DNA of 64,000 bases from the NCBI RefSeq assembly GCF_026571515.1, contig NW_026855305.1:248001-312000 (forward strand), written 5' to 3'. Positions 35,501 to 47,500 of this stretch are shown here, piece after piece; the first letter of the stretch is position 1, and every line of letters starts with the position of its first letter. Origin of the DNA: Ruditapes philippinarum (Eukaryota). The position numbers were made by a program.

Positions 35501-38500
35501 GGTAAAGGCCCGGTTACATTTTTTAAGACAGACAAATCGTAAAATTTCTACAACAAATGTTCATGCACTGCTAATTGGATTTATCTTTGTCATGTTGGTG
35601 CCAAAACCAAAGCCCTGCATCAACGGAGCAGAGACATAAGAAGGTAAAAACTAGGCTTATTTTCCCTGCAAATCTTCTATGGATGGTAGGTTAAGTCTTA
35701 CTGCTGCATTAAATATGCATGAAATTTTCATCATCTTCATCAATGTACAATGAAATAACGGAACTTCAAATATATAGAGAAAAAAACTCTGGTGCCGAAA
35801 TTATGATAGGCATGACTTACTGAATGAATAAGTAAGAAACAGTTGAAAAAAAAAAAAAAAAATTATAAATGAAAGTAATATTACCACAATCATATTTCAA
35901 AACAGACAACTATTTACACTGTTTCTTTGTTGTTTTCCTATTCATCAACCACTTTAAATTTGTAATACAAAAGGTGTTAAAATGCATTTTGCCCCATCTC
36001 ATTGGATTCAAAACAACCCCCACTATATTATAAACAAATAAACATGTAAGTTGTAGACAAATGAACCAAAGAATCAACACAGTTGACATAGGCTGATTTT
36101 ATACATGTAGCAAACAAGGTAGGTGTGCACTAAAATGTAACACTATATCAGTATATTTCTCTCGCACATAATACCAACAACAACAAGACATGATTTTAGT
36201 AGTCGATATTTCTTATTTTTAAGTAAATTTCACTTAAAGATCCTGTATGTTTTGTAATTGAGGTTGTATACCACTCTTACATGAAATTATGTGCATATAA
36301 TTATGCTAATTAAATTTTTTTCAAACATCAAAGAATTTGTAAAATATGAACTGCAAATATTTGTACATATTAAATGTAATCATTAAAATATATCCATTCA
36401 TTTCTTATTGGAAAATTTGTCTTAGAATTTATAGAATTTTTTTTAATTACCTCCCTTTATTTACATGAAATATTAAATTTGGTAATATCTTTATACATAA
36501 TGCTTTTTGGAACTTACAATATTGATAAATCTTAATTTGAACATCATATTTTGTATATAAAACCATAACAAGAATGTGTTACAGGATCTTTAAATTTGTG
36601 TTGAAACATTTATACAAGATAATGTTGTCTCCTTAGTGCAATAACTGGTTAACACCTATTTAATTAAGTACTTAACTCATTACTACACAAAGGAGACAAT
36701 GTCCCTCTTTCTATAACAAGAGCTGTCTGTAGGACAGCACGCTCGACTATTCTTAGTGCTTGATAGTAAAAGAGCCTTGATAATGTTTATTTTTTTTAAG
36801 TTCACAAAAGGGCAAATTTTTTTTTATAAATTCATGTTATAGGCCTTACAGAGAGTCTAATTATACAGTATTGGCTTGACTATTCGGAAGGTAATGTCAC
36901 AAGGGTGTTTTATTGAGTATAATAATACTAATTACCTATCAGATTACATAAATTTGACAGACAAGGTACAAAGGCTTGTTATTAAGATGTTTTATCAAGT
37001 AAATCACTGCTTTATTATTATGAATGCATAAAAATTGTCCCAAAAAAAGGCACAAACCCTTCAGTAGTTATTGAGATAACAGCTTACAAACAAAACTTTA
37101 AAATGAATTTCTAAGTTGAAAAAGGGGAGAAAAATCAGCCTAAATGCAAGATAGAATTATGGATCTTTGTCAGTGACCTACAATTATGACCCTAAATGCA
37201 TATGTGAAGTTTTAAATAAATATCTGTAATAGTTATTGAGATATGTAAAACTTGCATGTAAACATTAACCAAGATACTTAGTAGAAAAGGGGATATGAAT
37301 CAGCCTTAATGCAAGATAGAGTTATGGAACTTGGTCAGTGACATACAATTATGACCCTCCAATTATGACCCTAAGTGCATGTGTAAAGTTTCAAGTAAAT
37401 ATCTTTGAAGACCTTTAACCTCAACCAAAATTTCTAAGTTTCAAAGGGGCAAATAATTCTGCAAATATTGCAGGCAGAGTTATGCAATTTTGCAAACTGA
37501 TGTACATTGTTACTATAAAAAAGTATTTTACATTTCAATTGAATATCTCAAGCAATAATTGAGATATTTGACTTTACAAAAAAACTTTAACCAAAATTTC
37601 TAAGTTCCAAAGGGGCATAATTCTGTCAATATTGTAGGCAGTGTTATCCAACTTGTCAATCTGATGTACCTTGTTACTATAAATAAGTATTGTAAGTTTC
37701 AATTGAATATCTCAAGCAATAATTGAGATATTTGACTTTACAAAAAACTTTAACCAAAATTTCTAAGTTAAAAAGGGGCATAATTCTGTCAATATTGTAG
37801 GCAGAGTTATCCAACTTGTCAATCTGATGTACCTTGTTACTATAAATAAGTATTGTAAGTTTCAATTGAATATCTCAAGTAATAATTGAGATATTTGACT
37901 TTACAAAAAACTTTAACCAAAATTTCTAAGTTAAAAAGGGGCATAATTCTGTCAATATTGTAGGCAGAGTTATCCAACTTGTCAATCTGATGTACCTTGT
38001 TACTATAAATAAGTATTGTAAGTTTCAATTGAATATCTCAAGTAATAATTGAGATATTTGACTTTACAAAAAACTTTAACCAACGCAGACGCGGACGCCG
38101 ACGCCGGGGCGACTACAATAGCTCTCATATTCTTCGAATAGTCGAGCTAAAAAATAGTACACAACAAAAAGACAAAACAAAAACATACTAACCTTTGTAA
38201 ATGATATATAGAACTCTCTTTTCATAATACTTTTTTCCACTGATACAGTAACCCACAGGTTCCAACCAAACAGTCCAGCGAGAACCATACGCAGCACTAG
38301 TAAAGCAAACCCTGCGTATGTTCTGTGAGCGTGATATAACCTGTGAGTCTGGTCTTGATACTGTTCCCATAGAAACAAAACTCCCTGAAACATCAATTAT
38401 ACTTCATATCATATCAGATATATATATAGAGGGTTGTCGACTAACCCACCCAAGCCCTCAAAATGCTATTATTTTTATTTTTTCAAAATCTTTTTACTTT

Positions 38501-44500: not shown

Positions 44501-47500
44501 AAAAAAAGTTTTTGCAGTAAAAGGCAATACAAGAACCAAGATTCTAAGTCGATAAAAGGCCTTAATTTTTAAAACAAATCCTTGACAGAGTTACCTTCTC
44601 TTGCGTACAGATGGGGGTAATGATGTGAAATAGCATTAAAAGTTTCAAAGCAATATCTCAAAGGGTTAAGGCAATAAGTGGATTTTACCCATATTCAATG
44701 TATTTTCTAAGTCAAAAAGGGGCATAATTCTGTCAAAAACCTTGACAGAGTTATGTCCTCTTGTCTGTTGATGAAGGTCGTGATGGTAAACAAGTATGGT
44801 CAGTTTCAAAGCAATACCTCCAATGGTTTTGAAATAAAGTGAGGTGGTACAAAAAACTTAACCAAGCTCAATACACTTTCTAAGTCAAAAAAGGGCCATA
44901 ATTCTGTCAAAAACCTTGACAGAGTTATGTACTCTTGTCTGTAGATGGAGGTTATGATGGTGAACAAGTATGGTAAGTTTCAAAGCCATACTTGTAATAC
45001 TTCTGAAATAAAGTGGGGTGGTACGAAAAACTTAACCAAGGTGTGACGCCAACGCCGACGCCGACGCCGGGGCGAGTAGGATAGCTCCCCTTTTCATAGA
45101 AAAGTCGAGCTAAAAATGTCTCACCATGAAAACAGAAGGACGACAAGTATTGTCCTTTTTCTTGCCGGGCTGTCAAACTTGTCACGACTCCCCTTATAGT
45201 TTTACATGTAACTGACCCAAAAAGAGTAATTACAATGAAAGAAAATGTAAATATGTTGTTTTTATGAAATCGTGGTGACATATTTTCAATAAAGTTAGTG
45301 TAAAAATGCTTAAAACCACTGAAATCTCATCTTTCTGTCTGTTCGCGAAAATGTGTGACAGTTAAGGTGCCGAAAAGTTCGGCGGACGTGTAATGTCGTA
45401 AATATTCGAAACGAAAGACGTCTTTAATCTTTTACTCTGAGATATGCACGTTACAGTGGAAAACATTTTGTTCGTCTTATTTTCAGACTTCAAGTTAAAA
45501 CATTTTCTCATTACTTTGCACGACTTAACGACATTAGGTGTAAGACAACTAAATTTATTTGGCGCGTAATTTAAATAGCAGACTTAATCTATAAAAGTAT
45601 AAGTTTAATAGTTCTAAATGAAATTTTATTTTATGAAAGTAACATTTATTTATTCAAGTATGAAATTAATTTTGAGACCTTTATTAAGTGTGCTTACTAG
45701 CCCTTGTTTTAGCTCGTTATTTAATCTGTGCACTGTATTTAATTTTTTGAAGCTAAATTTGAGTGTTTTATCTTGAACATTTCGCAGTTCTTAGTCCTAG
45801 TTAAGTATTACGTATGTTGTTTATGCTTAGTGATGGTTTGTCCGCCCTTTAAGGCACAAAAAAGCAGCTTCGGACCCCGGGCAGGTGCTGATAATTTACC
45901 TCCATGCAATTTCCAAAGAGTTTATAATTATTAGCCAATTATATGAATTTTGAGCCAAAAACAGTGCACTATGCGGCGGACAATGGCTACCTAAATGAAC
46001 AATAACATGTAACGATATGAAAAGGAGGTAGCCCGGAAAAGGTTGATGCCAAATAAAGGCCTAACTTTCAAACAACCAATCTGTGCTATGACACTTTCCT
46101 CCTTGCTCCTGCCTACTTTGTAGGACCACTCATTTCGTCTTTAGACAGATAATCGGCAGCTGACCCACAGGTACAACTTCTGGTCTTTGTTTATTTCGAC
46201 ATCGGAATTTAAGTTCTTCAAATCTTCTGCCGATGTCCTGTGCCTTCTGAACGACGTGCATGTACCGAGGGGAAGTGTGGAAAGTCATTGTTATGCATTT
46301 CCATTATATAAATAAAAACGGGGTGTGTTATATACCGCGTAAGCACGTCTGAGGAGAATACCATTTGCTACAGAAGGTCGTTCCAATAAGGACGGACCTT
46401 TGATACTGTACGTATAACTTTTTGTCCAGTATTATTATGTACATGAACATTATACATATGCTTTAGATTATGATGTTAGTTCAGTGATCAATCCTCATTA
46501 TGAGGATGTTTTCATAAAGCAGCTAGTCATCAACCTAGATACTAAAGAAAACATTCAACTTGTAAACGCCAAGCGGTATTCTGTCCACCATTACGCAAGT
46601 AAGCTAGGAGATCCTACAATAGGATTAAGTGGAAGATCAGGAAACTTTTAGACGCGAATGTGAATGTGAATGCTGTCAAGAATACACGATGAAGGCTCGT
46701 CCATATAGAATCTGTGCTGCAAGATATGCCACATGAACTTAAATGTTAACAGGTGCCTGCACTTGCTTCTTTTCTACCGCAAGCGCTGAACGGTTAATAG
46801 TATGAGAAGGCTAACGACCTTTTGCACTCAACAATTGCCACTGATCACCTCTATGGCTTAGAAAGTCACTTGTTGAATCTCACAATATGCACGAGCAATT
46901 TATATCTGTAATAACTACACCAAATCAGAAGCTAGAAAGCTGAAACATAAAACCAGACCGAGTGTGTCATGAAATTTCCTTACATGTGAATGAGCTTATT
47001 AAAAATATCAAAATGACCTACAAACCTTCTTACCTCGAGAGAATACGTACGTGCGGCATTATAAATATTCATGACTCAGTAGCCATTTTGTCAAGTTTGC
47101 AATAATTTCGCCCGCTTGAACCAAGTGTGCAACCATTTCACGCCATGCCCCTTAAATTGTTGTACTATTCCTTTTATATGGTTCTTTGATTATTGGATAC
47201 TTTACAAGAATTAATTGAGTGATCTGAATAAAAAATACGCACGTGTACTTGCCAATGAAAATCATACAATGTTTTATTATGGATATACAAATAATTTCTA
47301 GAATTTGTACATTTCTTTCTAGCTATTTAGTGAAGAGCTTTTGAAACTTAATTAAGGGTCCAAAATTTGATTTAGCTGATTAGCCATTCAAATTTATAGA
47401 GTGTTATATTTGATAACACAACATTAACTACTGTGCAATTATTGTTATCTCTTAACTAACGGAAGAAGCATGCCATGTTTGAGATATGGACGGCAAGTAG

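What the first reader, a model, noticed from the sequence alone, without database searches (positions are those of the whole stretch)
36715..45124. Four HINE-type elements parked 8-38 nt after GPR180 splice donors, all in the same orientation
Seen: introns 1, 4, 6 and 7 of GPR180 each hold a Helentron-type non-autonomous element. Their T-run termini lie 8 nt (45116 vs donor 45124), 31 nt (41787 vs 41818), 38 nt (40484 vs 40522) and 38 nt (38154 vs 38192) from the upstream donor, although these introns are 0.8-2.9 kb long. They have three different terminal sequences and different decay levels, so they look like independent insertions. In the pre-mRNA sense, three begin TTTTTAG|CTC, which mimics a 3' splice site; the AG falls at intron positions 15, 45 and 46. 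Inference, two alternatives: (a) a splicing filter, where sense insertions survive only if the cryptic acceptor is too close to the donor to define an intron; (b) true targeting to T-tracts or nucleosome linkers just downstream of exons. I do not recall this positional rule being described.
Basis: partly seen in the sequence, partly recalled or inferred. Interest (0 to 1): 0.75.

Follow-up and report, generated by a model that had tools for sequence, protein, structure and literature searches.

The report
Four clam transposons parked beside splice donors
Four independent rolling-circle-type transposon relics in a clam GPR180 gene all sit, in the gene's orientation, 8 to 38 bases after an exon end, which is unlikely by chance but could be checked only in this one 64-kb window.

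Summary
GPR180 lies on the minus strand as 9 exons. Compared exon by exon, they tile a 435-aa Mercenaria GPR180-like protein to the codon. Introns 1, 4, 6 and 7 each hold a sense-oriented Helentron-type non-autonomous element (HINE). Three are structurally complete and one (B) is decayed. Their 5' T-runs start 8, 31, 38 and 38 nt after the donor G.

They are separate insertions: A and D are about 70% alike, C and B are unrelated. HINE C has two paralogous empty sites in the window. These show insertion inside a T-run of an older repeat, with no target duplication.

The clustering is improbable under the uniform and T-run-matched nulls I ran (about 3e-6 to 1e-3; 4e-3 if the introns were only 200 nt long at the time). 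It is not general: 0 of 13 donors of the neighbouring NARS gene carry one.

TTTTTAG|CTC is simply the family's 5' junction and is a weak acceptor. A survival filter cannot produce a roughly 160-fold local excess. I favour insertion-site choice over the splicing filter; chance remains a live rival. The genome-wide test could not be run.

The parts
32423..45281 (-). GPR180-like gene, coding part, 9 exons: 45281-45125, 43548-43414, 42602-42396, 41999-41819, 41031-40982, 40674-40523, 38384-38193, 35251-35174, 32578-32423 (stop included)
   Evidence: All introns are GT..AG. Lengths sum to 1308 nt. Exon-wise Pfam gives GP180_GOLD and GPR180-TMEM145_TM in colinear order. Exon-wise blastp tiles P0001 (Mercenaria GPR180-like, 435 aa).
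44449..45116 (-). HINE A in intron 1 (668 nt). Order of parts: T5, AGCTCGACTTTT subTIR, IR, (GGCGTC)n, 174-nt repeats x1.9, 3' subTIR, stem-loop, CTCTTGTT. The T-run starts 8 nt after the donor G.
   Evidence: (11 of 11 subTIR bases match).
41495..41787 (-). HINE B in intron 4 (about 293 nt), decayed. 5' end is TTTTAACCTTGTCTG with no AG, there is no tandem array, and the 3' end is a palindrome plus CTCTTGTTTT. The T-run starts 31 nt after the donor G.
   Evidence: 3' end. 5' end: only by alignment to the other copies. subTIR about 7 of 9 by eye. The stem-loop is no better than shuffles. No other copy in the window.
38795..40484 (-). HINE C in intron 6 (1690 nt). Order of parts: T5, AGCTCACCTGT subTIR with a 14-bp 5' hairpin, (CCGT)n, 166-nt repeats x6.5 or more, 3' subTIR, stem-loop, CTCTTGTTTTT. 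The T-run starts 38 nt after the donor G. Nested in repeat R1.
   Evidence: 10 of 10; z = -6.2. Empty sites.
36715..38154 (-). HINE D in intron 7 (1440 nt). Order of parts: T6, AGCTCGACTATTC subTIR, IR, (GGCGTC)n, 163-nt repeats x4.0 (95% matches), 3' subTIR, stem-loop, CTCTTGTT. The T-run starts 38 nt after the donor G.
   Evidence: (12 of 12). No such element in the 63 nt after the same donor in another species' read-through ORF, P0007.
38697..38802 (-). Right-hand part of the older repeat R1, directly after HINE C. The left-hand part is at 40485-40508, between the intron-6 donor and HINE C.
60603..60745 (+). R1 copy without a HINE (paralogous empty site, T8 where HINE C sits). A second such copy lies at about 62169-62300.
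49981..54047 (+). HINE E, related to A and D. It starts about 340 nt after the stop of a single-exon 7tm_1 receptor ORF (48522-49637, +) and is split by a degraded non-LTR retrotransposon. Not in an intron.
29324..29624 (-). HINE F, a decayed short copy related to D, 2.8 kb downstream of the GPR180 stop codon.
10060..19024 (+). Control gene: cytoplasmic asparaginyl-tRNA synthetase, 14 exons and 13 donors, none followed by a HINE.

Best explanation
The four are ordinary tandem-repeat-carrying HINEs: non-autonomous partners of Helentron rolling-circle transposons, of the 'pearl'/Cg_HINE type known from bivalves. Each was copied independently into a run of Ts on the gene's sense strand, without a target duplication.

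The TTTTTAG|CTC they present to the pre-mRNA is the junction of the target T-run with the element's AGCTC subterminal repeat. It is not a special splice mimic.

I attribute their position just after donors to where they went in, not to which copies survived. HINEs take T-tracts, and in this gene the tracts that were used lie 8-44 nt into the intron; in intron 6 an older repeat supplied the tract. The donor side of an intron needs only about 6 fixed bases, so such insertions are tolerated.

What is shown: the identity and anatomy of the elements, their independence, insertion into a T-run (for C), and non-random position within this gene. What is inferred: that the bias acts at integration. One possible reason is that the HUH nuclease needs single-stranded DNA, and the non-template strand of a transcribed gene offers it. 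That would also fit the sense orientation.
For: **Anatomy.**
- subTIR pairs match 11/11, 10/10 and 12/12 in A, C and D. Each has an IR, a microsatellite and a 3' palindrome.
- Arrays of 163-174 nt units.
- Hairpins fold better than shuffles for A and C at the 5' end.
- Only four clean palindrome+CTTGTT ends exist in the 64 kb, and all four are these (5 hits, 1 of them an AT-rich false hit).
- The anatomy matches the definitions read in passages of PMC7492417 and PMC4067079.

**Independence.** A and D are about 70% alike. C and B match none of the others beyond the termini.

**Insertion into a T-run.** The R1 copies at 60.6 and 62.2 kb read ...AAAG-T8-CATAAATACAGG and ...CAAGG-TCTTTTT-ATAAATACAAG. 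Intron 6 reads ...CAAG-T5-[HINE C]-T5-CTGTAAATACAGG.

**Non-random position.** P from 3e-6 to 4e-3 depending on the null.

**Against a survival filter.**
- Weak acceptor score.
- B lacks the AG.
- About 158-fold higher density next to donors than in the rest of the window.

**Orientation.** 6 of 6 copies point the same way as the nearest upstream gene (two-sided binomial 0.03). Sense T-runs of 4 or more are only 108 against 86 antisense in these introns.

**Precedent.** HUH nucleases cut single-stranded DNA only, and de novo Helraiser insertions favour expressed genes about 2-fold (passages of PMC4778049).
Against: - This is one gene. 0 of 13 NARS donors carry a HINE, although 12 empty sense T-runs of 4 or more, including a T8 and a T6, lie within 50 nt of them (17 over all 21 introns less 4 in GPR180). 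Fisher test, 4/8 against 0/13: p = 0.012. A general donor-targeting rule should also have hit NARS.
- The pattern was chosen after the fact, and no multiple-look correction is possible.
- The intron lengths at the time of insertion are unknown. At 200 nt each, P rises to 4e-3.
- If HINEs need tracts of 8 or more Ts, and all flanking Ts are host-derived, P is only about 1e-3 (hand calculation). Whether those Ts are host-derived is known only for C.
- Nothing here shows when or how the bias arises. The single-strand/transcription idea is inference.
- PMC7492417 reports Cg_HINEs in both orientations and no chromosomal preference. It did not look at splice sites in the passages I read, and its supplements are closed.
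Confidence: 0.45

Rival explanations
1. Coincidence plus ascertainment. Insertions fall at random among usable T-tracts. The four introns were shorter when they were hit, and the pattern was picked out after reading.
For: P rises to 5e-4 at 300 nt per intron and 3.7e-3 at 200 nt, and to about 1e-3 if only tracts of 8 or more Ts count. At least 230 nt of the 448 non-HINE nt of intron 6 is other repeat (R1, and a second repeat at 38587-38689), so introns here do grow by insertion. 0 of 13 NARS donors are occupied. The number of windows and patterns the first stage looked at is unknown.
Against: HINE-free introns in this window are 212-2595 nt, median about 400, so 200 nt for all four is an extreme assumption. 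R1 predates HINE C, so intron 6 was not minimal when C arrived. All nulls built on present sequence give 1e-5 or less. In mammals, transposons are depleted near exon boundaries (abstract and section 8 of PMC3088655); if that holds here, chance proximity is less likely still.
Confidence: 0.3
2. Splicing filter. Sense HINEs carry a 3' splice-site mimic, and survive only where the AG is too close to the donor to define an intron.
For: The AG lies at intron positions 15, 45 and 46. Real acceptors in this window are short T-runs plus YAG (one search list). A, C and D carry donor-like GTs of about median strength downstream of the AG: C has AGG|GTGAGC 30 nt in (6.9) and CAG|GTGAGC (9.1), against a real median of 7.1. 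A pseudo-exon is therefore possible.
Against: The mimic scores 1.5, 3.3 and 5.2, against a real median of 7.1. It is matched or beaten by 7.5-33% of 333 ordinary intronic AGs in the same introns. B has no AG. A filter cannot create the roughly 158-fold excess over the rest of the window, where intergenic and antisense copies would escape it. No antisense copy is present in the 7.5 kb of non-HINE intron sequence.
Confidence: 0.12
3. The copies are kept because they help. For example, the U-run or the 5' hairpin just after a donor might improve recognition of that donor.
For: None from a tool. It rests on general knowledge that U-rich tracts downstream of 5' splice sites can enhance their use (recalled, not checked here).
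Against: It needs four separate beneficial insertions in one gene. Another species reads 63 nt past the exon-7 donor with no such element. Donor scores of the occupied introns were not shown to be weak (one search lists them among the 21 without separating them).
Confidence: 0.05

Closest known systems
Cg_HINE elements of the Pacific oyster and the 'pearl' group (CvA, DTC84, MgE) of bivalves (PMC7492417; PMC3879986; passages read)
   Same: Same module order: 5' subTIR, complementary IR, microsatellite, array of about 160-170-nt repeats, 3' subTIR, palindrome. Oligo-T target, no target duplication, non-coding.
   Different: The sequences are from a venerid clam and were not compared with the oyster consensus, which no tool here holds. 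The passages I read give no analysis of distance to splice sites and report both orientations. The supplements, which hold the consensus ends and the insertion sites, are closed.
DINE-1/INE-1 and HINEs of Drosophila and other animals (PMC4067079, PMC2374699; passages read)
   Same: subTIRs, IR, 3' stem-loop, central repeats, insertion between Ts in T-rich DNA, a variable number of flanking Ts. Hundreds of copies lie in introns.
   Different: Different terminal sequences. Those papers count intronic copies but, in the passages I read, do not examine their position within the intron.
Underrepresentation zones of transposons near mammalian exons (PMC3088655; abstract and section 8 read)
   Same: Elements very close to exons (<20 bp) are biased to the donor side, because the donor needs only about 6 intronic bases.
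   Different: There the overall effect near exons is depletion, usually with an antisense bias. Here it is a local excess of sense copies. DNA transposons were left out of that analysis.
Helraiser (reconstructed bat Helitron) integration profile (PMC4778049; passages read)
   Same: A rolling-circle HUH enzyme that needs single-stranded DNA, with an AT-rich target and about 2-fold enrichment in expressed gene bodies.
   Different: Canonical Helitron (A^T target, TC...CTRR ends). No splice-site-scale preference is reported in the passages I read.

Membership tests
HINE (Helentron-associated interspersed element) | Subterminal inverted repeat of about 11-13 nt at the 5' end, repeated in inverse before the 3' stem-loop | tested here: met
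   A 11/11, C 10/10 and D 12/12 exact. B has no exact match of 7 or more, and about 7 of 9 by eye after alignment.
HINE (Helentron-associated interspersed element) | Short IR complementary to the 5' subTIR, forming a 5' hairpin | tested here: met
   A -8.1 kcal/mol (z -3.1), C -13.2 (z -6.2), D -4.9 (z -1.8, weak).
HINE (Helentron-associated interspersed element) | Microsatellite in the left flank, followed by a central tandem-repeat array | tested here: met
   (GGCGTC)n in A and D, (CCGT)n in C. Arrays: 174 nt x1.9, 166 nt x6.5, 163 nt x4.0. B has only a degenerate GTC-rich stretch and no array.
HINE (Helentron-associated interspersed element) | Palindrome or stem-loop a few bases before the 3' end | tested here: met
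   (stems of 6-8 bp in all four). The folds for A, D and B are not better than shuffles (z -0.8, -1.6, -0.05); C gives z -2.0.
HINE (Helentron-associated interspersed element) | Insertion between Ts in T-rich DNA without target-site duplication | tested here: met
   Shown for C by two paralogous empty sites. For A, B, D, E and F only the flanking Ts are seen; no empty site was available.
HINE (Helentron-associated interspersed element) | No coding capacity | tested here: met
   ORFs of 63 aa or more lying inside the elements gave no Pfam match. The only hits among the 25 ORFs of the locus come from the GPR180 exons.
HINE (Helentron-associated interspersed element) | An autonomous Helentron (Rep/helicase/endonuclease) with the same termini in the same genome | not testable with these tools
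   No Rep or helicase match among the 150 longest ORFs of the window (125, 25; 213 ORFs of 55 aa or more exist). The rest of the genome is not available.
Canonical Helitron | 5' TC, 3' CTRR, insertion between A and T | tested here: not met
   The ends are (T)n-AGCTC ... CTCTTGTT, and the target is a T-run.
Introner-like element (a transposon that creates the intron it sits in) | The element, with a few flanking bases, makes up the whole intron and supplies or co-opts its splice sites | tested here: not met
   The elements fill 42%, 37%, 79% and 49% of introns 1, 4, 6 and 7 (lengths; hand calculation). The GT and AG of each intron lie outside the elements.

The most novel reading that the evidence does not exclude
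Helentron integration in this clam is actively directed to the first few dozen bases of introns, on the non-template strand of genes transcribed in the germ line. It could use single-stranded DNA at polymerase paused near the 5' splice site, or a contact with the donor-recognition machinery. That would make it a DNA transposon with splice-donor-proximal, strand-specific target choice. The gene-to-gene difference (GPR180 hit 4 times, NARS not at all) would then reflect germ-line expression or pausing.
Probability: 0.15. Interest if true: 0.85.

Novelty: new member of a known kind. Interest (0 to 1): 0.45.

Why it matters
If the excess near donors holds genome-wide, and already among young polymorphic copies, it would be the first splice-site-scale target preference I can find for a rolling-circle transposon. 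Four searches and the passages read from PMC7492417, PMC4067079, PMC2374699, PMC11417382, PMC4778049 and PMC5139131 show no such report.

It would tie integration to transcription or splicing, and would help explain how elements making up 4-5% of a clam genome (Table 1 of PMC8905726) coexist with genes.

If it does not hold, these are four ordinary HINE copies and a coincidence.

Tried and rejected
**Looking for other genes where an exon reads through into a HINE.**
- The 54-aa read-through peptide of HINE A was searched against the 1.84-billion representative library. It gave 4 hits, with 8, 27, 79 and 4 residues of upstream flank. None has a Pfam domain.
- The same peptide against the 5.8-billion collection, longer proteins only, gave 0 hits among 103 candidates.
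- This is too little to say anything. The approach is also biased towards short distances, because stop codons end long read-throughs.

**Other checks.**
- Rfam on 28000-64000: no family, so R1 is not a known RNA-derived repeat.
- A TTTAGCTC string 84 nt after NARS donor 3 (12318, +) has none of the other HINE parts, so I did not count it.
- In one search the context I gave for copy E was off by one base; I dropped its score (-4.7).
- Introner and canonical Helitron readings were rejected (see membership test).
- Deletion between T-runs bringing elements next to donors, and protection from deletion next to an exon, were considered and set aside. Neither explains four complete elements with long intron tails downstream (inference only).

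**Not done.**
- The RRM-domain gene (around 23.2 kb) was not modelled, so its donors are not in the control count.
Neither orthologous introns nor other loci of this genome could be read.
- The joined (spliced) GPR180 protein was never built or searched.

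
Full report
**What the window is.** The DNA is AT-rich (about 32% G+C) and comes from a bivalve, not a human. Exon translations of an asparaginyl-tRNA synthetase gene (plus strand, 14 exons, 10060-19024) are 94-100% identical to a named Ruditapes philippinarum protein; one exon is 87%. 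The GPR180 exons are 70-100% identical to a named Mercenaria mercenaria GPR180-like protein. One run of N (8813-9070) was left alone.

**The gene.** GPR180 lies on the minus strand in nine exons, from 45281 to 32423.
- All eight introns are GT..AG.
- The exon lengths sum to 1308 nt, with consistent phases.
- Searched one exon at a time, exons 1-3 hit GP180_GOLD at profile positions 1-25, 39-73 and 84-107. Exons 6-8 hit GPR180-TMEM145_TM at 71-100, 118-180 and 183-207. Exons 4 and 9 hit nothing, and exon 5 (16 aa) was too short to send.
- Exon-by-exon blastp against the 435-aa Mercenaria protein covers residues 7-52, 54-97, 99-166, 168-226, 228-243, 245-294, 295-358, 359-384 and 385-435. The exon ends are therefore right to the codon.
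- I searched the model exon by exon only. The joined protein was never assembled or searched.

**The elements.** Read in gene sense, introns 1, 4, 6 and 7 each contain the same series of parts:
- a run of 4-6 Ts;
- AGCTC-type subterminal repeat;
- a short complementary repeat that closes a hairpin;
- a GC-rich microsatellite;
- an array of 163-174-nt units;
- the inverse copy of the subterminal repeat;
- a stem-loop;
- CTCTTGTT.

This is the architecture that defines HINEs, the non-autonomous partners of Helentrons. It has been described for oyster Cg_HINEs and the bivalve 'pearl' elements (passages of PMC7492417 and PMC4067079; PMC3879986).

A, C and D are complete, with exact repeat pairs of 11, 10 and 12 nt. 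B is a 293-nt relic: its 3' end is clear, but its 5' end is placed only by alignment, and it begins TTTTAAC rather than TTTTTAG. A and D are about 70% alike. C and B match nothing else beyond the termini. The four are separate insertions of at least three families.

Two more copies lie outside introns. E (49981-54047, plus strand) starts about 340 nt after a receptor ORF and is split by a retrotransposon. F (29324-29624, minus strand) lies 2.8 kb beyond the GPR180 stop.

**An empty site.** The 24 nt before HINE C and the 105 nt after it are two halves of another repeat, R1. Its intact copies lie at 60.6 and 62.2 kb. Where those copies have T8 or TCTTTTT, intron 6 has T5, then HINE C, then T5. 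This fixes the element's ends at AGCTC...CTCTTG. It shows insertion inside a T-run with no duplication. It also shows that this T-tract was host sequence, supplied by an older repeat that itself reaches to within about 20 nt of the donor.

**Is the position more than chance?** The T-runs start 8, 31, 38 and 38 nt after the donor G, and the element cores start after intron bases 13, 35, 43 and 44.
- With the elements masked, the eight introns hold 194 T- or A-runs of 4 or more. Only 6 of them lie within 50 nt of a donor.
- Over the 21 introns of GPR180 and NARS, the empty runs number 17 sense-near, 211 sense-far, 7 antisense-near and 152 antisense-far.
- The chance that four insertions all fall in the near-donor class is 3e-6 to 9e-6 under the uniform or run-of-4 nulls.
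- It is about 1e-3 if only tracts of 8 or more count and all flanking Ts are host-derived (hand calculation).
- It is 1e-4 to 4e-3 if all four introns were only 400 to 200 nt long when hit.
- HINE-free introns in the window are 212-2595 nt long.
- None of these figures allows for the pattern having been chosen after reading.
- Against generality: none of the 13 NARS donors is followed by a HINE, although a T8 and a T6 lie right after two of them. Fisher test p = 0.012.

**The splice-mimic idea.** TTTTTAG|CTC is the 5' junction of all six copies, whether or not they sit in an intron.
- A small scoring matrix built from the 21 verified acceptors of the window gives the three sites 1.5, 3.3 and 5.2. 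Real sites, each left out in turn, range from -2.0 to 12.6 with a median of 7.1.
- 33%, 19% and 7.5% of 333 other AGs in the same introns do as well. The matrix is crude and the scores depend partly on the host flank.
- The sense strands do carry donor-like sites of about median strength, so a pseudo-exon is not absurd.
- A filter can only remove copies. It cannot explain about 5 copies per kb in the 38-nt zones after 21 donors against 0.03 per kb elsewhere in the window. It also does not cover element B.

**What I conclude.** The bias most likely arises at integration. HINEs take T-tracts, and the tracts taken in this gene lie just inside the intron, on the sense strand, where only about six bases are needed for splicing. 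The orientation agrees: 6 of 6 copies are co-oriented with the nearest upstream gene (p = 0.03). Sense and antisense runs are nearly equally common, 108 against 86.

Rolling-circle HUH enzymes cut single-stranded DNA only, and Helraiser favours expressed genes (passages of PMC4778049). Single-stranded non-template DNA is therefore a reasonable, but untested, reason. Coincidence remains a serious rival, because the evidence is one gene and the neighbouring gene shows nothing.

**Comparison with what is known.** In mammals, transposons are depleted near exon boundaries. Those within 20 bp are biased to the donor side, and sense copies are usually rarer (abstract and section 8 of PMC3088655). The present case shares the donor-side tolerance but is a local excess of sense copies.

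In the passages I read of the HINE, DINE-1, HELIANO and clam/oyster repeat papers, I found no analysis of distance to splice sites. The searches found none either. Supplements are closed, including the Cg_HINE insertion-site figure, so a tabulated hint there would have escaped me.

**Verdict.** The elements are new members of a known family. The splice-filter reading is not supported. Integration bias is favoured, at a confidence of about 0.45. The genome-wide test that would settle it could not be run with the collections open here.

Noticed in passing
window 49981-54047 (+), inner part about 50120-53982: HINE E is split by a degraded non-LTR retrotransposon. Its endonuclease and reverse-transcriptase ORFs are in at least four pieces, and it has an (ATTCT)n tail. 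It is flanked by a 57-nt direct repeat, 50120-50176 and 53926-53982, 96.5% identical: an unusually long target duplication.
   Followed up: partly
window 40485-40508 and 38697-38802 (-); 60603-60745 and 62169-62300 (+): Repeat R1 (about 140 nt, with an internal T/A-run and a GGTATGAAA...TTTCATACC hairpin). It reaches to within about 20 nt of the intron-6 donor, so a second kind of repeat also lies next to a donor. The two intact copies belong to a larger local duplication, 60429-60734 and 61913-62295. No Rfam match.
   Followed up: partly
window 1487-1734, 28433-28676, 62940-63187: A repeat of about 245 nt, 85-93% alike, that matches the other copies in both orientations. It is a foldback or long-inverted-repeat miniature element.
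   Followed up: no
window 33243-33933 (intron 8 of GPR180): An array of 12.8 copies of a 45-nt unit (96% matches), next to 19-30-nt related repeats and inverted 'cgtaagatttt' motifs. It is a different tandem-repeat-bearing insertion with no HINE ends.
   Followed up: no
window about 45695-45725 (+), 430 nt upstream of the GPR180 start codon: A short string, CCCTTGTTTT followed directly by AGCTCG. It looks like a HINE 3' end joined to a HINE 5' end with nothing between them. It could be chance, a relic or a junction.
   Followed up: no
window 38079-38396 (-): The Pfam TM-domain alignment of this open frame runs 24 residues past exon 7 into the intron and the start of HINE D (50.7 bits, against 42.4 for the exon alone), over profile positions normally encoded by exon 8. 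This is probably a hydrophobic coincidence; the read-through in another species (P0007) does not resemble it.
   Followed up: partly
window 38969-39004: A run of about 36 G (gene sense) with a few interruptions inside the repeat array of HINE C.
   Followed up: no
window 48522-49637 (+) and 56610-58559 (-): Two intron-less ORFs: a 372-aa rhodopsin-family receptor and a 650-aa B-box/NHL-repeat protein.
   Followed up: no
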